This document shows positions 6,167 to 10,969 of a DNA stretch of 11,372 nt, piece by piece (the first letter of the stretch is position 1; each line of letters starts with the position of its first letter). The stretch covers positions 1 to 11,372 of the IMG/VR virus record IMGVR_UViG_2778261165_000014. The stretch is one strand, 5' to 3'. The notes beneath the pieces were generated by a model. The model did not search any database and was not told where the DNA came from. It saw only the letters and a list, made by a program, of their open reading frames with translations. The DNA comes from a virus. Its lineage: Duplodnaviria; Heunggongvirae; Uroviricota; Caudoviricetes. Both the position numbers and the translations under genes were made by a program.

Positions 6167-7027
6167 TTAAAATGGTTGTAAGCCTTTCAGCCCTGCGGCA
6201 TCCTCCAGACTTTTCTTAACGCTTGCAGTTACGGAATAGCAATCTGCAATTCTTCCGCAAAATCTGGTCGCAACCGGAGAGCCAAGCAATCGCAAAGCGG
6301 GTTCCATTTCGTCTCTCCATATTCTGTACATGGCATCAAGATGAATGCACGCCGAGTTCAGGTTATGAACATTCATCCTCCAATCAAAACAACTCATCTC
6401 ATTATGTTTCGACTTGCCGATGAATTCGCCTTCAAGTGGAACTCGAGCTGCAAGTGACAGTGCTTCGGTAAACTGCTCCTCACGGATTTCTTTGTATGAA
6501 CATCCAAAATGAGATTTCAGTGACGACCACATGGTGATCATCGCCTTCGCCTGTTTTTCTTTTGGCAGAGACTGACCGCGACTCATGACAAGTTGTTTAA
6601 TGGCTTCCTGCTGTTCAGTGGTGATTTTACCCGGCAATGCCTTTTTAGCTTTGCGCGGGTTAACCACATGGCCTTTAGTCCAGTACTCGTAGAGCACATC
6701 GTCACACTCTTCCTGATAGTGGATTACATTGTCGCGGATTTCAGGGCGGACTTTGTTAGGGCTGATGGTTTGCAACCAGCCATTCAGTTTACGTAAAGCA
6801 AGGCAAATCATGGTCTGCACGCCGCCAACTGAAGGTATTGCGATTTCCACAATACCTTTAGCAAATCTTTGTTTTAACTTTGTAAACTGTGAAGCCCAAT
6901 CCATACCCATTCCCTCAACGATAGGTTTCATTGGGGTGTACGGTTCGCCGTTGTGATTGACAACATAAAGCTCTGCGCCGTGAAATGGCACGTTGATAGT
7001 AGATACCGCTGTTGCTATACTTTTCAT
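6167..7027 (-). CDS. ant: Antirepressor (Ant-like)
   Basis: 286-aa ORF directly downstream of an Arc-like gene and divergent from an Mnt-like gene, which is the P22 immI arrangement. Size is close to P22 Ant (about 300 aa as I recall). GAGGA lies 9 nt upstream of the ATG at 7027. Confidence 0.75.
   Translation of the reverse strand: MKSIATAVSTINVPFHGAELYVVNHNGEPYTPMKPIVEGMGMDWASQFTKLKQRFAKGIVEIAIPSVGGVQTMICLALRKLNGWLQTISPNKVRPEIRDNVIHYQEECDDVLYEYWTKGHVVNPRKAKKALPGKITTEQQEAIKQLVMSRGQSLPKEKQAKAMITMWSSLKSHFGCSYKEIREEQFTEALSLAARVPLEGEFIGKSKHNEMSCFDWRMNVHNLNSACIHLDAMYRIWRDEMEPALRLLGSPVATRFCGRIADCYSVTASVKKSLEDAAGLKGLQPF
6993..7021 (+). promoter_or_regulatory. Candidate sigma70 promoter for the sar-like antisense RNA (TTGATA-17-TATACT)
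   Basis: -35 TTGATA at 6993-6998, a 17-nt spacer, and -10 TATACT at 7016-7021 on the plus strand, inside the 5' end of ant and pointing toward arc. Confidence 0.5.
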
Positions 7028-7097
7028 GTCAGTTTTTCCTCAATACTTACTGGCGATTTAAGCCCTAGATACTCGCAATATCTGGGGCTTTACTCAT
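7028..7097 (+). ncRNA. sar: Candidate sar-like small antisense RNA (about 70 nt) complementary to the ant ribosome-binding region
   Basis: The predicted start just after the -10 box lies opposite the ant start codon and SD. The plus-strand hairpin agccctagata (7061-7071) / tatctggggct (7079-7089) has an 11-bp stem with one G-U pair and a 7-nt loop, followed by T-rich ttactcattct (7090-7100). Length and position match what I recall of P22 sar (68-69 nt). Confidence 0.5.
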
Positions 7098-7240
7098 TCT
7101 GGACAAACAATCCCGTCCTTAGCTACCGACTCCTTAAGCCTCCTCAACACCTCATTGCTGAATGACCGATCATCCTTTTTCGCTGACTGCTCCAAAGCTT
7201 TTTCGAGCCATTCTGGCATCCTTAACGTTTTTACTTTCAT
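7094..7240 (-). CDS. arc: Arc-like ribbon-helix-helix repressor (48 aa)
   Basis: Not in the ORF track because it is under 60 aa. Manual translation gives MKVKTLRMPEWLEKALEQSAKKDDRSFSNEVLRRLKESVAKDGIVCPE, with AGGAG 5 nt upstream of the ATG at 7240..7238. The LRMPEW and RSFSNEV segments resemble the P22 Arc strand and helix regions as I recall them. Confidence 0.7.
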   Translation of the reverse strand: MKVKTLRMPEWLEKALEQSAKKDDRSFSNEVLRRLKESVAKDGIVCPE

Positions 7241-7253
7241 TTTCGCTCCTTTG

Positions 7254-7270
7254 GTATGCGGTACGCATAC
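7254..7270. promoter_or_regulatory. 17-bp palindromic operator candidate (GTATGCG-gta-CGCATAC) over the predicted start of the arc-ant transcript
   Basis: Perfect 7-bp inverted arms read directly from the sequence. It lies immediately downstream of the predicted -10 of the arc-ant promoter, the geometry expected for an Mnt-type operator. Confidence 0.5.
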
Positions 7271-7299
7271 ATAGTATGTAGGTACGCATTGATAGTCAA
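7271..7299 (-). promoter_or_regulatory. Candidate promoter for arc-ant (Pant-like; TTGACT-17-TACTAT)
   Basis: On the minus strand, -35 TTGACT is the reverse complement of 7294-7299 and -10 TACTAT is the reverse complement of 7271-7276, with a 17-nt spacer. A GGTACGCAT direct repeat (7261-7269 and 7281-7289) and the palindrome ATTGAtagTCAAT (7288-7300) overlap it. Confidence 0.5.
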
Positions 7300-7317
7300 T
7301 AGATACCTACATATCCT
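7289..7317 (+). promoter_or_regulatory. Candidate divergent promoter for the mnt-like gene (TTGATA-17-TATCCT)
   Basis: -35 TTGATA at 7289-7294 overlaps, back to back, the -35 of the arc-ant promoter inside the palindrome. The -10 candidate TATCCT at 7312-7317 is weaker. Confidence 0.3.
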
Positions 7318-7345
7318 GTGGTAAAAAATTATTCAGGATATGCTG

Positions 7346-7588
7346 ATGTCTGAACGCAGGTACAAGAACCCACAAGTTAATCTTCGACTTCCTGTGGAGA
7401 TAAAGGATCGCCTAACCGCGTTAGCTGAGGAGAATGGCAGATCTTTAAATGCAGAAATGGTTGCAGCTCTAAGTGCATGGGCAGGAGAAAATAAACATGT
7501 TCACTCGCTTAGCCTTTCTTCCTTAACCGAAAGATTAATAGCTCTTGAGAGAGAGGTTGCAGCCATTAAGGAAGCAAACATCAAGTAA
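7346..7588 (+). CDS. mnt: Mnt-like ribbon-helix-helix repressor
   Basis: The ORF track starts at 7340; the second ATG at 7346 has AGGA 7 nt upstream. The N-terminus ...PQVNLRLPVEIKDRLTALAEENGRSLNAEMV... shows the Arc/Mnt family pattern, and the C-terminus LTERLIALEREVAAIKEANIK looks like a coiled coil, which Mnt uses to tetramerise. Divergent from arc-ant. Confidence 0.7.
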   Translation: MSERRYKNPQVNLRLPVEIKDRLTALAEENGRSLNAEMVAALSAWAGENKHVHSLSLSSLTERLIALEREVAAIKEANIK

Positions 7589-7611: not shown

Positions 7612-8079
7612 ATGGCATGTCTTAGCAAGGAAGAAAATGAAATCATCAATGTAGAATTTAAAAAAACATCAGCAGATGAGTTGTTGATAATCAAGAAATT
7701 AATTATCGATGTTAAGAACCATAAAGGGCTATACCAAGATGTCGTAAAGCATGGTCAAAACCTGTACAACTCAAAGAATAACATCATTCAAGAAACCGGA
7801 CTTAGCGAAAAGATATCTGGTCGTCTTGCTATGATCCTTTGGTCTATCACTAATCCTGAGGTTGAGGCGGCACGCCGATTAAAGATTAAGATCACTGAGG
7901 CAACGTGGGTGTTTGAGGATTTCCTATGTAAACATCCCAGTCACCGCAATCTCAATGGCAAAAAGTACTCTATTCGTAAAGGAATCAGGATCGGTTTTTT
8001 CAAGCACATCCACCCAGGACAACTTGTAGGGTGTGGATGTTTATCTAGACCCATAATTCCAGGGTTAAAAAACTCTTGA
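7612..8079 (+). CDS. Hypothetical protein (155 aa), unrecognised, in an AT-rich cargo island
   Basis: ATG at 7612, 23 nt after the mnt-like stop, with an SD-like acgagg upstream. Hand count of a 100-nt sample (7612-7711) gives about 29% GC, against about 49% for a sample in the baseplate J gene (2401-2500). The C-terminal region has a Cys/His cluster (C106, H108, H111, H132, H134, C141, C143). Confidence 0.55.
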   Translation: MACLSKEENEIINVEFKKTSADELLIIKKLIIDVKNHKGLYQDVVKHGQNLYNSKNNIIQETGLSEKISGRLAMILWSITNPEVEAARRLKIKITEATWVFEDFLCKHPSHRNLNGKKYSIRKGIRIGFFKHIHPGQLVGCGCLSRPIIPGLKNS

Positions 8080-8088
8080 TAGTAGTAA

Positions 8089-8328
8089 TTAATTTCCATC
8101 AAGGGCAGCAAGCAGCGAAGTGCGCAACTCTTCTTGAGTCATTTTCAACTCTCCGCTCTTTGCTTGCCGGCGAAGATCATCGACCACCATTTTGGTGAAT
8201 TCTGTAGGGGTAATCTCACTCTCGATAGAGACCTCTCTCCCGAGAAGCAATGATATCCCACCCCAAATTAGGCTAAAGGCATTACCAATATTTTTTAACG
8301 ATGGAGTGTAAACGATGGAAAGTTTCAT
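8089..8328 (-). CDS. Possible small protein (up to 79 aa, or about 53 aa from TTG at 8250), antisense to the start of the 116-aa plus-strand ORF; uncertain
   Basis: This is the C-terminal part of the 161-aa minus-strand ORF in the track. It has a hydrophobic stretch (IGNAFSLIWGGISLLLG) followed by a charged tail (...EFTKMVVDDLRRQAKSGELKMTQEELRTSLLAALDGN). The plus strand has no ORF of 60 aa or more across 8080-8314. SDs are weak. Confidence 0.25.
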   Translation of the reverse strand: MKLSIVYTPSLKNIGNAFSLIWGGISLLLGREVSIESEITPTEFTKMVVDDLRRQAKSGELKMTQEELRTSLLAALDGN

Positions 8329-8665
8329 TTTTACCGTCCGACAAGAAGATGTTGAATCATTAAACGAAGCAATGCAAACATGGGGGCTAGAACATAAGCC
8401 ACATGTAACACTAGCATTCGACAGCTCGTCTCCACCAGAGTGGGTGCAAGTAATTGTTAACGGAATAACAAGCCCTGCGGCAATGAATTGTTTATCTGCT
8501 GCAATTGGATATTTCGTCGCCAGAAACAAGGGGAAAAAGCTAGAGATACAAACTAACGACGGGAAAAGATTCATCGCTGAAGGGTTTAATCATCGTGAAA
8601 TAAGCGCCTTACTGAGCGAATGTCAAGATCATATCGTTGTCAATAATGATGACAAGCCCACCTGA
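8315..8665 (+). CDS. Hypothetical protein (116 aa), unrecognised
   Basis: ATG at 8315 with GGAG 8 nt upstream (8303-8306). Same orientation as the mnt-like gene and the neighbouring cargo ORFs. The sequence looks like a soluble protein; no motif recognised. Confidence 0.5.
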   Translation: MESFIFTVRQEDVESLNEAMQTWGLEHKPHVTLAFDSSSPPEWVQVIVNGITSPAAMNCLSAAIGYFVARNKGKKLEIQTNDGKRFIAEGFNHREISALLSECQDHIVVNNDDKPT

Positions 8666-8729
8666 GTAGGCATTGCGTGTTTTTTCTTCATTTAATGGGC
8701 AATTGAAATAACCAATACGGATCTCTAAA

Positions 8730-9131
8730 ATGAACATCTTAAAATCTACCATCTCAATCCTCTTTCTGCTAAGCCCTTCCGTGTGCTTCTCGTCTGGCGG
8801 CCTTACTTCACATCAAGTTTTAGTGGATTGCAACAGAGCTTCATCGTCCTTGGTTAGCTCCTATGAAAAGAACGTTCCATTGCAGGAGTCCAAAAGGATG
8901 GACCTCATACAGACAATATCCCGCGTATGCCAAGGTGCATACCAAAACGCTTACGATGGCATGCAGTATGAGGACATTGAAAGAGAGGTTTTATCAAGCG
9001 CCAAAAAACAAAAGAAAAATCTTCAAGGAGAAAGCAAAAAAAATACCGAGAACAGAACCGGACTAGTTCTTTCCGCCATTCAGGTAGGGTATTACATATA
9101 CCATAATGGCGGTCTTGATAATAAAAAATAA
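8730..9131 (+). CDS. Hypothetical secreted or membrane-associated protein (133 aa) with N-terminal signal peptide
   Basis: The N-terminus MNILKSTISILFLLSPSVCFSSGG has a basic n-region and hydrophobic core typical of a Sec signal. The C-terminal part is Lys-rich and contains a second hydrophobic stretch (GLVLSAIQVGYYIY). Its 3' end converges on the tape-measure gene with a 20-nt gap. Confidence 0.6.
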   Translation: MNILKSTISILFLLSPSVCFSSGGLTSHQVLVDCNRASSSLVSSYEKNVPLQESKRMDLIQTISRVCQGAYQNAYDGMQYEDIEREVLSSAKKQKKNLQGESKKNTENRTGLVLSAIQVGYYIYHNGGLDNKK

Positions 9132-9151: not shown

Positions 9152-10969
9152 TTAAGGTGTTACACCACTAGAAAATGCCGCGTTTGTTGACACCCGGCTA
9201 ACTTGCTGATTGACACTTCTGGTAAGAGCATCAACTGTTGTCGGGTTACTGTTAACAACAACCGTGCCAATAGTTGTACTGCTGCTACGACTGTTGTCAA
9301 TTTTTGATGTTGTCTGGCTTGGTGTTGAAGCGATGCGTTGCTGCTGCTGATAGTAAGCCAGCGTCTCGTTTTCTTTTGCATTAAGAGCTGCGCGAATCTT
9401 TGGTACATATTCTCGCGTTTCTTTCGGCAGGGTGTTCCAGTATTTGGATGATGGTGAATCAAACCCGGTACTGGATATGTATTTTAACTTTTTGTCTACA
9501 TTGCCCATCCCCCAGTTGTAAGCCATCAGCGCATGGTTAACATTGCCTTTATAGTGCTTTAGCAAATCCCTCATGAACCTTTCAGCAGCAGCGCGAGATT
9601 TCACTTCATCAAGACGCTCATCAATCCCATCCCCGACCTTTAACCCGTACGCTATGGCAGTATCCTTCATGAGCTGATACGGACCAACAGCACCTTTCGG
9701 GCTGTAAAGTTTTTTACCACCACTCGATTCCACCTCACGAATGGCATCAAGAAGAGAATCCATGCTTACAGGCTTTACTCCGTCAGGGAGAGGGATATCT
9801 GGCTGAATGTTATTGCCATAAATCTCATCTCCCCTACGCCCAAAATCGGTGTCAAACCCCATGCTGCGCATGGTATCTCCAAGTTCACGCTTAGAGTAAT
9901 CAAACGATCCTTTAGCTGCACCCTCAATGTTTTCCCTGTCATTGTAGAGGTACAAACCATATGCTATTAACCCAGCCAACCATGGAGGAAGGGCACCGCC
10001 TGTAAGTTTGCTTCCTACATATGCTGCTGCCAATAGTTTCAGAGCCTCTTCCGCACCACCAACTGCCTTTGTGAATTGCTTCGTCATATTCCCGGCGTCA
10101 TTGAAAAAGCCAATGATGTCGCCATGATGTTTCTCAATCCAGGAACCAAAAGCCTTCATCCCGTCAATAACGTCTGGAGCGAATGCCATGGCTAAATTTT
10201 GCTTTAATCGGGAAAACTCTGAATCAAGTTGCCCAAGAGTGGCAGCAACCTTCTCCTGCTCTTTTACCTGCTGTGCGGTAATACGGGATTTCTTTGTTTC
10301 TGAATCGACAAGCTGCTTAAGTTCCCCTGATTTTATTTTAGCGGCATCTGTCGGATCGAACCCTGATGCAGCCATCACCTGCATCAGGTTTTCTTGAGAA
10401 TGAGTCTTGCCATAGCGAGAAAACTCAGCAAGAGCCTTGTTTGGGTCGCCGAGCTTATTGATATCTAATCCGGTACGAGCTCCAAGAATCAGCAAATTTT
10501 GGGCAGCGCCAGTAAGCCCTCCCATAACAGTCGGATCGGCAATATTTGCCAAAGCCATTCTGGCATTCCCAGAAGATGAAATGAACGAGTCACCGTTAAG
10601 ACCAGCCTGGCGAAATCCCCGCTGAACACCAAACATCTTATTAACATCAGAGCCGAAAAACTTGGCCTGTTGGCTGGCCCTCACAATTTCGTTGGCAGTA
10701 GATGTAAAAAGTTGCTTGATTCCATACAACCCTGCGCCAATTCCCAAAAATCCAGCGGCTGCTGTTGTCACGTTGCGGAAAGCTGAAACAGCGGTTTTAC
10801 CGAACCTCTCCATTTCCTTCCGCCGTTTTTCAAGTTCCTTTAGCCTTTCCTTCTCAGCCCTGGAAAGATCTTTGTTTAATTTACTAACTTCATCTTTTAC
10901 TTTCCGTTTTCCATTCAGGAATTCATCGGCCTTAATTGTGACCTTGTAGGCCAACTCATTGATAATCAT
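9152..10969 (-). CDS. Tape-measure-like protein with C-terminal SLT lytic transglycosylase domain
   Basis: 605-aa ORF. The N-terminus has a charged coiled-coil-like stretch (KRKVKDEVSKLNKDLSRAEKERLKELEKRRKEMERF) and Gly-rich hydrophobic segments. Around aa 400-515 (nt 9425-9772) it carries family-1 SLT motifs: E-S (E414, codon 9728-9730), GAVGPYQLM, and AYNWG. GGAG lies 5 nt upstream of the ATG at 10969. Confidence 0.7.
   Translation of the reverse strand: MIINELAYKVTIKADEFLNGKRKVKDEVSKLNKDLSRAEKERLKELEKRRKEMERFGKTAVSAFRNVTTAAAGFLGIGAGLYGIKQLFTSTANEIVRASQQAKFFGSDVNKMFGVQRGFRQAGLNGDSFISSSGNARMALANIADPTVMGGLTGAAQNLLILGARTGLDINKLGDPNKALAEFSRYGKTHSQENLMQVMAASGFDPTDAAKIKSGELKQLVDSETKKSRITAQQVKEQEKVAATLGQLDSEFSRLKQNLAMAFAPDVIDGMKAFGSWIEKHHGDIIGFFNDAGNMTKQFTKAVGGAEEALKLLAAAYVGSKLTGGALPPWLAGLIAYGLYLYNDRENIEGAAKGSFDYSKRELGDTMRSMGFDTDFGRRGDEIYGNNIQPDIPLPDGVKPVSMDSLLDAIREVESSGGKKLYSPKGAVGPYQLMKDTAIAYGLKVGDGIDERLDEVKSRAAAERFMRDLLKHYKGNVNHALMAYNWGMGNVDKKLKYISSTGFDSPSSKYWNTLPKETREYVPKIRAALNAKENETLAYYQQQQRIASTPSQTTSKIDNSRSSSTTIGTVVVNSNPTTVDALTRSVNQQVSRVSTNAAFSSGVTP

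What the first reader, a model, noticed from the sequence alone, without database searches (positions are those of the whole stretch)
7612..9131. AT-rich cargo island of unrecognised small genes at the sieA-equivalent position of an immI-like module
Three plus-strand ORFs (155, 116 and 133 aa), and possibly a small antisense ORF, lie directly downstream of the Mnt-like repressor gene and antisense to the late operon. A hand-counted 100-nt sample here is about 29% GC, against about 49% in the flanking structural genes, which suggests separate acquisition. I recognise none of the proteins. One has a signal peptide and one a Cys/His cluster. In P22 the region next to mnt carries the superinfection-exclusion gene sieA (from memory of the P22 map), and cargo slots of this kind in phage late regions often carry defence genes. 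This is my best candidate for an undescribed exclusion or anti-phage system. The function is a hypothesis only.
Basis: partly seen in the sequence, partly recalled or inferred. Interest (0 to 1): 0.8.

Follow-up and report, generated by a model that had tools for sequence, protein, structure and literature searches.

The report
Mosaic prophage cargo slot, three modules
The interval is a real, variable cargo slot in the tail region of an E. coli prophage, holding four small genes in three independently mobile modules, one of them a distant, protease-less relative of a known pore-forming anti-phage effector (EACC1).

Summary
The three plus-strand ORFs are real genes (dN/dS 0.09-0.32). A fourth gene, ORFm, lies antisense at 8089-8328. 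All sit between an ant-arc-mnt module and the tape-measure (TMP) gene, antisense to the late operon. The "AT-rich island" claim fails: GC is 41.0% against 43.8% for the window, with only one 100-nt dip to 26%.

This is not one system. Homology breakpoints at about 8082/8089 and 8672/8673 define three modules that occur separately in related prophages.
- ORF1 is a stand-alone, divergent MuF (head-morphogenesis) domain that travels with mnt.
- ORFm/ORF2 is a divergent, 5'-overlapping gene pair. ORF2 is a remote EACC1 homologue. EACC1 is a latent pore-forming defence effector normally cut by a partner caspase. No protease is adjacent here. ORFm always lies on the late-operon strand, as the Tab/anti-Tab and Tai/Ati counter-defence genes do.
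- ORF3 is a secreted, two-cysteine, four-helix protein with no structural neighbour. Its position beside the TMP stop codon holds at least six unrelated secreted two-Cys protein families in relatives.

In relatives the slot ranges from empty (12 nt) to 4.4 kb, and also carries Panacea toxin-antitoxin and P63C genes. A lysogen-expressed anti-phage role is plausible, but it is inferred, not shown.

The parts
6167..7027 (-). ant: antirepressor (context, immI module)
   Evidence: PF10547 P22_AR_N E=3.9e-44. PGAP: phage antirepressor N-terminal domain protein.
7028..7094 (+). sar-like antisense RNA candidate in the arc-ant intercistronic gap (context)
   Evidence: Rfam RF00262 sar, 28.7 bits, below the gathering score of 43, E=0.0047, full model length.
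7094..7240 (-). arc: 48-aa Arc repressor (context)
   Evidence: PF03869 E=1.6e-5.
7260..7313 (.). Putative Arc/Mnt operators in the divergent promoter region
   Evidence: Tandem 21-nt direct repeat (7260-7280 and 7281-7301) and an 18-nt inverted repeat (7275-7292 / 7296-7313). The function is inferred.
7340..7588 (+). mnt-like ribbon-helix-helix repressor, first gene of the plus-strand unit
   Evidence: PF03869 Arc E=1.7e-10. 85% DNA identity to the CUS-3 mnt region.
7612..8079 (+). ORF1, 155 aa: stand-alone divergent MuF (SPP1 gp7 / Mu F) domain with invariant C106, H108, H111, C141 and C143. It forms module 1 together with mnt.
   Evidence: - phrog_324 'head morphogenesis' E=5e-9, matched by all 14 family members.
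- tblastn matches to head-morphogenesis genes of 27 phage records.
- 23% identity over 109 aa (E=4e-11), and hhalign 95.6% probability, to the prophage's own PF04233-positive minor head protein.
- dN/dS 0.18-0.32.
- Same 24-nt spacing after mnt in L002 and L020-23, and overlapping with mnt in L009.
- Homology with L020/L021 ends at 8082.
8089..8328 (-). ORFm, 79 aa: small conserved partner of ORF2, on the late-operon strand. Its start overlaps the ORF2 start by 14 nt.
   Evidence: - PGAP CDS WP_047085298.1.
- dN/dS 0.08-0.11 outside the overlap, with codon position 2 the least variable.
- Homologous ORF next to every ORF2-type gene in the window, L018/19, L010-12, L013-15, L037 and L038.
- No family match in Pfam, NCBIfam or PHROGs, and no tblastn match in phage records.
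8315..8665 (+). ORF2, 116 aa: remote EACC1-like protein (candidate latent membrane effector), with no protease partner.
   Evidence: - The family profile finds only 19 proteins among 1.84 billion representatives, including P0048 at E=2.7e-5.
- P0048 matches PF19953 EACC1 at 36.9 bits, above the gathering score of 23.6.
- 9 of 16 family members hit EACC1 at E up to 5; in the six seen individually the matched stretch is in the same register.
- hhalign of the ORF2 family against P0048: 96% probability, E=2.8e-9, 77 columns.
- BLASTP of ORF2 against P0048: 30% identity over 74 aa, E=3e-8.
- dN/dS 0.09-0.13.
- The cassette 8098-8671 is shared with Salmonella locus L018.
8673..8729 (+). Upstream leader of the ORF3 module; the module joint lies at 8672/8673.
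   Evidence: Homology with L003, which has ORF3 but not ORF1 or ORF2, starts at 8673. Homology with L018, which has ORF2 but not ORF3, ends at 8671.
8730..9131 (+). ORF3, 133 aa: secreted four-helix-bundle protein with two invariant mature-region cysteines (C34, C67), convergent with the TMP gene (20-nt gap).
   Evidence: - Full-length conservation including the signal peptide in 10 sequences from E. coli, Salmonella, Pectobacterium and Yersinia.
- dN/dS 0.10 against Pectobacterium (L016); 0.27 against the near-identical E. coli L003, where only two sites differ.
- AlphaFold2 mean pLDDT 83, pTM 0.74; helices 27-46, 53-75, 80-95 and 100-126.
- No significant structural match.
- Always adjacent to the 3' end of the SLT/TMP gene.
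9152..10969 (-). Tape-measure / lytic tail protein with a C-terminal SLT transglycosylase domain (context; right border of the slot)
   Evidence: PF01464 SLT E=3.8e-20 at residues 402-498. phrog_2013 'lytic tail protein' E=2e-191.

Best explanation
Interval 7612-9131 is a hypervariable cargo ('moron') slot of a lambdoid prophage with an E217-type contractile tail. It lies between the tape-measure gene and the ant-arc-mnt immunity module. It holds four real genes in three separately exchangeable modules.

Shown:
- Module 1: ORF1 is an orphan, divergent MuF-domain protein that travels directly behind mnt.
- Module 2: ORFm and ORF2 are a conserved divergent pair whose 5' ends overlap. ORF2 is a remote homologue of EACC1. 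In published systems EACC1 is an autoinhibited monomer that forms membrane pores after cleavage by a partner caspase-like protease. No protease gene accompanies ORF2 or its prophage relatives.
- Module 3: ORF3 is a secreted, two-cysteine, four-helix protein of a new fold family. It sits at a position beside the TMP stop codon that relatives fill with unrelated secreted two-Cys proteins.

Inferred mechanism: these are lysogen-expressed protective functions.
- ORF2 would be made from the prophage as a latent membrane-permeabilising (abortive-infection) effector. An infection-borne signal, most simply a proteolytic cut, would activate it.
- ORFm lies on the Q-antiterminated late-operon strand. 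It would be made only during the prophage's own lytic growth and would neutralise ORF2. The same late transcript would run antisense across ORF2. This is the logic shown experimentally for Tab/anti-Tab and Tai/Ati.
- ORF3 would act in the periplasm on injection by related phages, possibly on their TMP/SLT protein.
- ORF1 would be co-transcribed with mnt in the lysogen and would act as a decoy MuF domain that disturbs head assembly of invading phages that use MuF.
For: - Gene reality: dN/dS is 0.08-0.32 for all four genes.
- Modularity: homology breakpoints lie at 8082/8089 and 8671/8673. ORF1 occurs without ORF2 or ORF3 in L002, L008, L020-23, L004-7 and L009. ORFm-ORF2 occurs without ORF1 in L010-15, L018-19, L037 and L038. 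ORF3 occurs alone in L003 and L016.
- Slot variability: 12 nt to 4.4 kb. Other cargo includes Panacea TA, P63C and a LexA-like repressor.
- ORF1 is a MuF domain.
- ORF2 is EACC1-like. EACC1 biology comes from bioRxiv 10.1101/2025.11.14.688446 and PMC7159879.
- Lysogen-type positions of relatives: the bona fide EACC1 P0048 lies directly after cI, in the rex position. P0049 lies antisense between Q and the lysis genes. P0043 lies beside an Arc/Mnt gene.
- Orientation: in the tail-operon contexts (the window, L010-15, L018/19, L038) ORF2-type genes are antisense to the late genes and ORFm is on the late strand; the short L037 contig has the same gene pattern.
- Precedents: the same architecture was shown experimentally for tab/atab (PMC10884400) and tai/ati (PMC11364771).
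- ORF3: signal peptide, two invariant Cys and a confident helical model. At least six unrelated secreted two-Cys families occupy the same position.
Against: - No experiment, and no expression data for this prophage.
- ORF2 itself does not reach any Pfam or NCBIfam threshold. The EACC1 link is transitive, and the ORF2 model was poor (pLDDT 52).
- The defining protease partner of EACC1 systems is absent, so the activation route is unknown. ORF2 may have a different role.
- No conserved sigma-70-like promoters were found for ORF2 or ORFm across homologues.
- ORF3 has no structural or sequence neighbour of known function. Its link to the TMP is positional only.
- ORF1 as a decoy is pure inference.
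- PADLOC gives no match for any of the proteins.
Confidence: 0.6

Rival explanations
1. The three or four genes form one integrated, undescribed exclusion system acquired as a single AT-rich island.
For: They are contiguous, mostly on the same strand, and lie downstream of mnt. The complete set is 98.9-99.8% identical in four E. coli genomes.
Against: Each module occurs without the others in related prophages, with sharp homology breakpoints. GC is 41.0% against 43.8%, which is not a compositional island.
Confidence: 0.04
2. ORFm/ORF2 is an addiction (toxin-antitoxin-like) or lysis-timing module that serves prophage maintenance or release, not defence against other phages.
For: It is a conserved two-gene cassette with a putative membrane-active member. 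Panacea toxin-antitoxin pairs occupy the same slot in sister prophages.
Against: - The genes are divergent with overlapping 5' ends, not a co-directional operon.
- Neither protein has a DNA-binding antitoxin domain.
- The published role of EACC1 is anti-phage cell death.
- Relatives sit at classic lysogen-expressed exclusion positions.
Confidence: 0.15
3. The cargo genes are lysogenic-conversion or fitness factors unrelated to phages. For example, ORF3 and the other secreted two-Cys proteins could be envelope or host-interaction factors.
For: Secreted small proteins at moron positions often serve the host. ORF3 has no detectable link to any defence family. An O-antigen acyltransferase sits next to an ORF1 homologue in L009.
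Against: Unrelated secreted families repeatedly replace one another at a single position beside the injection-machinery gene. That is the pattern expected of an arms-race locus. Known defence cargo shares the slot (Panacea TA). A gene with a precomputed BstA_C match lies near the ORF1 homologue in Edwardsiella, though a fresh Pfam scan did not reproduce it.
Confidence: 0.2
4. ORF1 serves the prophage's own biology: a second MuF-type virion or assembly protein, or an accessory regulator of the immI switch.
For: It is homologous to the phage's own minor head protein. It is tightly linked to mnt.
Against: - It lies 11 kb from the portal/MuF genes, on the strand opposite the late operon, whereas 85-87% of muf genes lie near portal or terminase genes (PMC5576092).
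- It is absent from 11 of the 16 closely related E. coli prophages.
- Sister prophages with mnt lack it.
Confidence: 0.12

Closest known systems
EACC1 (Pfam PF19953), the effector of the two-gene EACC1-caspase conflict system (Kaur et al. 2020; Evans et al. 2025 preprint)
   Same: - Size of about 110-125 aa.
- An N-terminal alpha+beta part, then a conserved hydrophobic helix rich in small residues (TSPAAMNCLSAAIGYF), then RN.GKK and two beta strands.
- Profile-level homology through a Pfam-validated member.
- An invariant Asp-Ser (LAFDS, D36) lies just before the helix. This is roughly where the published protein is cut (Asp49); the correspondence is inferred.
   Different: - ORF2 does not reach the Pfam threshold itself.
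- No caspase-like or other protease gene is adjacent in any of the contexts examined.
- It is encoded in prophages, antisense to late genes or behind a repressor.
- It has a different conserved partner, the 58-79-aa ORFm.
- Its hosts are enterobacteria, whereas EACC1 is mainly found in actinobacteria and other multicellular bacteria.
Tab/anti-Tab (P. aeruginosa phage JBD26) and Tai/Ati (phi80, PICIs): a prophage defence gene paired with a late-expressed counter-defence gene
   Same: The defence-type gene lies on the strand opposite the late operon. A small partner lies on the late-operon strand, giving a non-contiguous-operon layout. ORF2 and ORFm have this layout in all six lineages examined.
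   Different: Sequence similarity was not tested. Tab and Tai block tail assembly, whereas ORF2 is predicted to be a membrane effector. ORFm and ORF2 overlap head-to-head by 14 nt.
MuF / SPP1 gp7 / Phage_Mu_F (PF04233) minor head proteins
   Same: ORF1 residues 45-152 align with the whole PF04233 region of the prophage's own MuF protein. The H...G...PG...CxC signature is retained.
   Different: - No direct Pfam match.
- Only 155 aa, lacking the roughly 110-aa N-terminal part.
- It lies behind mnt, antisense to the late operon, and not after the portal gene.
- It has extra invariant Cys and His residues.
- It is rare and dispensable among sister prophages.
P22 sieA, and other tail-region or periplasmic exclusion genes such as HK97 gp15, TP-J34 Ltp and T4 Spackle (the last three are cited from my own knowledge)
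   Same: The position matches: in P22, sieA lies between the genes for the DNA-delivery machinery and mnt. ORF3 is a small exported protein encoded next to the injection-machinery gene.

Membership tests
EACC1 (PF19953), for ORF2 | Match to the Pfam model at or above the gathering score | tested here: not met
   ORF2 has no EACC1 match even at E up to 5, and no NCBIfam match.
EACC1 (PF19953), for ORF2 | Homology to a validated member by profile methods | tested here: met
   - The ORF2 family profile finds P0048 at E=2.7e-5 among 1.84e9 proteins.
- P0048 scores 36.9 bits against a gathering score of 23.6.
- hhalign gives 96% probability, E=2.8e-9.
- 9 of 16 relatives hit EACC1 at E up to 5; the six seen individually match in the same register.
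EACC1 (PF19953), for ORF2 | One conserved TM-like helix with a patch of small residues, flanked by alpha+beta elements | tested here: inconclusive
   The helix TSPAAMNCLSAAIGYFVA is conserved. Its hydropathy is only 1.37 over a 19-residue window. The AlphaFold2 secondary structure fits but has low confidence (pLDDT 52).
EACC1 (PF19953), for ORF2 | Adjacent 3' gene for a caspase-like (or other) protease | tested here: not met
   No protease domain lies within about 5 kb in the window or in L010-15, L018-19 or L037-40. L035/36 have only the S24 autoprotease domain of cI.
EACC1 (PF19953), for ORF2 | Cleavage-dependent oligomerisation into membrane pores | not testable with these tools
   This needs toxicity, cleavage and liposome assays.
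MuF / Phage_Mu_F (PF04233), for ORF1 | Match to the Pfam model at or above the gathering score | tested here: not met
   No PF04233 hit for ORF1 or for any of its 13 relatives at E up to 1.
MuF / Phage_Mu_F (PF04233), for ORF1 | Homology to validated MuF proteins and retention of the C-terminal H/G/PG/CxC signature | tested here: met
   - phrog_324 is matched by 14 of 14 members.
- hhalign gives 95.6% probability against the prophage's PF04233-positive protein.
- The signature residues are aligned.
MuF / Phage_Mu_F (PF04233), for ORF1 | Gene in the packaging module, immediately downstream of the portal gene | tested here: not met
   ORF1 follows mnt, about 11 kb from the portal/MuF genes and on the opposite strand. 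The criterion comes from PMC5576092.
P22 SieA-type exclusion protein | Inner-membrane protein of about 162 aa with three TM segments | tested here: not met
   The best 19-residue hydropathy is 0.72 for ORF1, 1.32 for ORFm, 1.37 for ORF2 and 0.74 for mature ORF3. SieA features are from PMC10883804.
P22 SieA-type exclusion protein | Located between the DNA-delivery genes and mnt | tested here: met
   The window order is TMP(SLT) - cargo - mnt. In P22, sieA, orf59a and mnt are contiguous.
T4 Spackle-like periplasmic inhibitor of a tail lysozyme, for ORF3 | Small exported helical protein with a disulfide | tested here: met
   Signal peptide, invariant C34 and C67, and a four-helix model with pLDDT 83.
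T4 Spackle-like periplasmic inhibitor of a tail lysozyme, for ORF3 | Fold or sequence similarity to Spackle | tested here: not met
- No Foldseek match has E of 0.001 or less.
- Spackle is not in the lists shown.
- The PDB profile search finds nothing relevant.
Tab/anti-Tab and Tai/Ati type defence plus counter-defence pair, for ORF2/ORFm | Defence gene antisense to the late operon, counter-defence gene on the late-operon strand | tested here: met
   This orientation holds in the six lineages examined. The architecture is described.
Tab/anti-Tab and Tai/Ati type defence plus counter-defence pair, for ORF2/ORFm | Sequence homology to Tab, Tai or their antidotes | not tested
   No reference sequences were at hand. 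PADLOC 2023 has no such models and gave no match.
Type II toxin-antitoxin, for ORFm/ORF2 | Co-directional bicistronic operon with a DNA-binding antitoxin | tested here: not met
   The genes are divergent with a 14-nt head-to-head overlap. Neither has an RHH or HTH domain.

The most novel reading that the evidence does not exclude
ORFm/ORF2 represents an undescribed, protease-less branch of EACC1 effectors that temperate phages carry at lysogen-expressed positions: behind cI, beside mnt, or antisense inside late operons. In this reading the latent pore former is triggered directly by a component of the invading phage, for example its prohead or another phage protease. A small antidote on the late-operon strand spares the resident phage during its own lytic cycle. 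Together they would be a compact two-gene abortive-infection system with built-in self-immunity.
Probability: 0.2. Interest if true: 0.8.

Novelty: new variant of a known kind. Interest (0 to 1): 0.6.

Why it matters
Prophage cargo slots are a main source of new anti-phage functions.

This slot gives three separately testable leads.
- An EACC1-like effector that lacks the protease thought to define such systems, paired with a small partner on the late-operon strand. If it is functional, EACC1-type pore formers could be licensed by something other than a dedicated caspase. That would extend the 'defence plus late-expressed self-immunity' layout to a membrane effector.
- A position beside the tape-measure gene where unrelated secreted two-cysteine proteins replace one another. 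This suggests an arms race in the periplasm over DNA injection.
- A lysogen-linked orphan MuF domain, which may be a decoy for head assembly.

The work also corrects annotation. PGAP truncates ORF3 and so loses its signal peptide. ORF1 is unannotated in one genome. A 161-aa antisense ORF is spurious.

Tried and rejected
- Composition as evidence of acquisition: rejected. The island is 41.0% GC against 43.8%.
- The 161-aa antisense ORF (8089-8574) as a gene: rejected. It is highly 'conserved' in translation (91% in Salmonella) only because its wobble positions coincide with those of ORF2. It is interrupted by stop codons in Yersinia and L013.
- Direct family searches: Pfam, NCBIfam, PADLOC and PDB-sequence searches of the four proteins gave nothing significant. 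The only hits were the two PHROG matches, phrog_324 for ORF1 and phrog_12509 (unknown function) for ORF2.
- tblastn against 50,697 phage records: no match for ORF2, ORF3 or ORFm.
- Structure route for ORF2: failed, with pLDDT 52 from a shallow alignment.
- ORF3 against the other secreted proteins at the same position: BLASTP shows no similarity beyond two family pairs (ORF3 with L010, and L008 with L011), so there are several separate families.
- Conserved promoters or terminators for the cassette: none are shared between homologues. The hairpins in the ORF1/ORFm and ORF3/TMP gaps are no better than shuffled sequence.
- Genome-contig scan with the TMP: only 10 loci, of which 6 were useful.
Full report

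**Checking the observation.**
- The three plus-strand ORFs exist exactly as described. All are under purifying selection, with dN/dS 0.09-0.32 against homologues in other genera and mostly third-position changes.
- A fourth gene, ORFm at 8089-8328(-), is real. PGAP calls it. Its dN/dS is about 0.1 outside the overlap with ORF2. A homologous ORF accompanies every ORF2-type gene in six lineages.
- The longer 161-aa antisense ORF is an artefact of a frame that shares wobble positions with ORF2. Its translation looks conserved, but it is broken by stop codons in Yersinia and in L013.
- The AT-richness claim is wrong. The island is 41.0% GC, the window 43.8% and the flanks 43-46%. Only one 100-nt dip to 26% exists, at 7626-7725.

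**One island or several modules?** DNA comparison with related loci gives sharp breakpoints.
- The arc-mnt-ORF1 stretch is shared with L002, L020 and L021 up to 8082.
- The ORFm-ORF2 cassette (8098-8671) is shared with Salmonella locus L018.
- The ORF3 block starts at 8673 in L003.
- Each module occurs without the others.
- The interval between the TMP gene and the next structural gene is 12 nt in distant relatives (L013, L014) and up to 4.4 kb elsewhere.
- Sister E. coli prophages hold Panacea toxin-antitoxin pairs, a P63C gene, a LexA-like repressor or a different secreted protein there.
- Among 5426 complete E. coli genomes, 16 carry this TMP, 5 carry ORF1, 4 carry ORFm-ORF2 and 9 carry ORF3.

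The 'cargo slot' idea is therefore well supported, and the 'single system' idea is not.

**ORF1.**
- All 14 family members match phrog_324 (head morphogenesis).
- tblastn finds SPP1-gp7/MuF genes in 27 phage records.
- Residues 45-152 align with the PF04233 region of the prophage's own minor head protein: BLASTP E=4e-11 and hhalign 95.6% probability.
- The H/G/PG/CxC signature is kept. C106, H108, H111, C141 and C143 are invariant, which suggests a metal site.
- It fails the Pfam threshold. It also fails the usual genomic criterion, since muf genes normally follow the portal gene (PMC5576092).
- Instead it follows mnt. The gap is the same 24 nt in L002 and L020-23, and the two genes overlap in L009.
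- I infer that it is co-transcribed with mnt in the lysogen and acts as a decoy for MuF-dependent head assembly. The prophage's own lytic cycle would be spared because Arc and antisense late transcription shut the mnt promoter. That last step rests on knowledge of P22 immI. This part is speculative.

**ORF2 and ORFm.**
- ORF2 has no direct family match. Its family is tiny: 9 clusters at 90% identity and 19 proteins among 1.84 billion representatives.
- One of those 19, P0048, is a bona fide Pfam EACC1 at 36.9 bits against a gathering score of 23.6.
- Nine of 16 relatives give EACC1 matches at E up to 5; in the six seen individually the register is the same.
- hhalign between the close ORF2 family and P0048 gives 96% probability over 77 columns. 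Plain BLASTP gives E=3e-8.
- EACC1 was defined as the constant component of a two-gene EACC1-caspase conflict system (PMC7159879). It was recently shown to be an autoinhibited monomer that forms membrane pores once a partner protease removes its N-terminal part (bioRxiv 10.1101/2025.11.14.688446).
- ORF2 shares the layout, including an invariant LAFDS motif just before the conserved small-residue helix.
- No protease gene is nearby in any context.
- These prophage forms sit at lysogen-expressed positions instead. P0048 lies directly behind cI, in the rex position. P0049 lies antisense between Q and the lysis genes. P0043 lies beside an Arc/Mnt gene. ORF2 itself and P0039 lie antisense in tail operons.
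- The small partner ORFm is always on the late-operon strand, head-to-head with ORF2. It persists even where the ORF2 allele has been swapped for one only 31% identical (L037).
- This is the architecture shown experimentally for tab/anti-tab and tai/ati. There the defence gene is constitutive from the prophage and the antidote is transcribed with the late genes.
- I therefore propose that ORF2 is a latent abortive-infection membrane effector and ORFm is its late-expressed neutraliser. The trigger is unknown; a proteolytic cut by an infection-borne protease is the simplest guess.

**ORF3.**
- The full 133-aa form, including its signal peptide, is conserved in E. coli, Salmonella, Pectobacterium and Yersinia. 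PGAP's 77-aa call therefore truncates it.
- AlphaFold2 gives a confident four-helix bundle (pLDDT 83) with two invariant cysteines.
- The gene always abuts the stop codon of the SLT/TMP gene, even in a Pectobacterium element of different make-up.
- At the same position relatives carry at least five other, mutually unrelated, exported two-Cys proteins of 114-255 aa.
- This replacement pattern next to the injection-machinery gene suggests periplasmic exclusion factors. The inference is positional only.

**Verdict.** The genes, their position and their variability hold up, but the composition claim does not. This is a defence-type cargo slot, but a mosaic of three modules. Two of the 'unrecognised' proteins belong to known superfamilies. 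The most interesting element is the protease-less EACC1-like gene with its partner on the late-operon strand, which is a new variant of a known kind.

Noticed in passing
window 7028-7094 (+): A sub-threshold Rfam match to sar RNA (28.7 bits, gathering score 43, E=0.0047, full model length). It lies exactly in the arc-ant intercistronic gap on the opposite strand, as sar does in P22.
   Followed up: no
window 7260-7313: A tandem 21-nt direct repeat (GGTACGCAT...) and an 18-nt inverted repeat between arc and mnt. These are probably Arc/Mnt operators of the divergent promoters.
   Followed up: no
window 8089-8574 (-): A 161-aa antisense ORF whose translation is 91% 'conserved' in Salmonella. It is spurious: it shares third-codon positions with ORF2 and is interrupted by stop codons in Yersinia and L013. 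Only its last 79 codons (ORFm) form a gene.
   Followed up: yes
3' end of the TMP gene: window 8730-9131; L008 6541-7005; L011 6416-6886; L012 6416-6895; L041 5025-5498; L024 9846-10337; L026 9837-10604; L007 6479-6823: At least six mutually unrelated families of small exported proteins occupy the position next to the stop codon of the SLT/tape-measure gene. Each has a signal peptide and two to four mature-region cysteines.
   Followed up: partly
L035 5001-5378 and L036 2478-2855; L039 4814-5194: A Pfam-validated EACC1 gene sits directly downstream of a lambdoid cI repressor, in the rexAB position, followed by a 134-aa protein with an N-terminal TM segment. Another EACC1-like gene lies antisense between Q and the lysis genes. 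Neither has a protease nearby.
   Followed up: partly
L004-L007 (Edwardsiella) and L016 (Pectobacterium): ORF1 or ORF3 homologues lie next to an SLT/TMP-like gene in elements that otherwise carry a DUF927-Toprim primase and, in Edwardsiella, SSB, terminase small-subunit fragments and a gene with a precomputed BstA_C match (not reproduced in a fresh Pfam scan). They lack the tail operon. These may be prophage remnants or satellites.
   Followed up: no
L001 21899-22132 (window 8898-9131); L002 6602-7069: Annotation problems in RefSeq. ORF3 is called as a 77-aa protein starting at an internal Met, which loses the conserved signal peptide. The ORF1 homologue of strain TW10590 is not annotated at all.
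   Followed up: yes
L002 7075-7120 (matches window about 8090-8137): Strain TW10590 retains about 48 nt of the 3' end of ORFm after ORF1, followed by an antirepressor fragment and a P63C gene. This is a scar showing that the ORFm-ORF2 cassette was replaced there.
   Followed up: partly
L037 1201-1215: Beside an ORFm homologue (71% identical), only the first few codons of an ORF2-type start remain. The functional EACC1-like gene 180 nt away is a different allele (31% identical). The effector has been exchanged while the partner was kept.
   Followed up: partly
L008 9998-10486; L010 11647-12147; L018 7388-7873; L042 10382-10882: HNH endonuclease genes are inserted at different points of the tail operon in related prophages, which is another sign of frequent insertion in this operon.
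   Followed up: no
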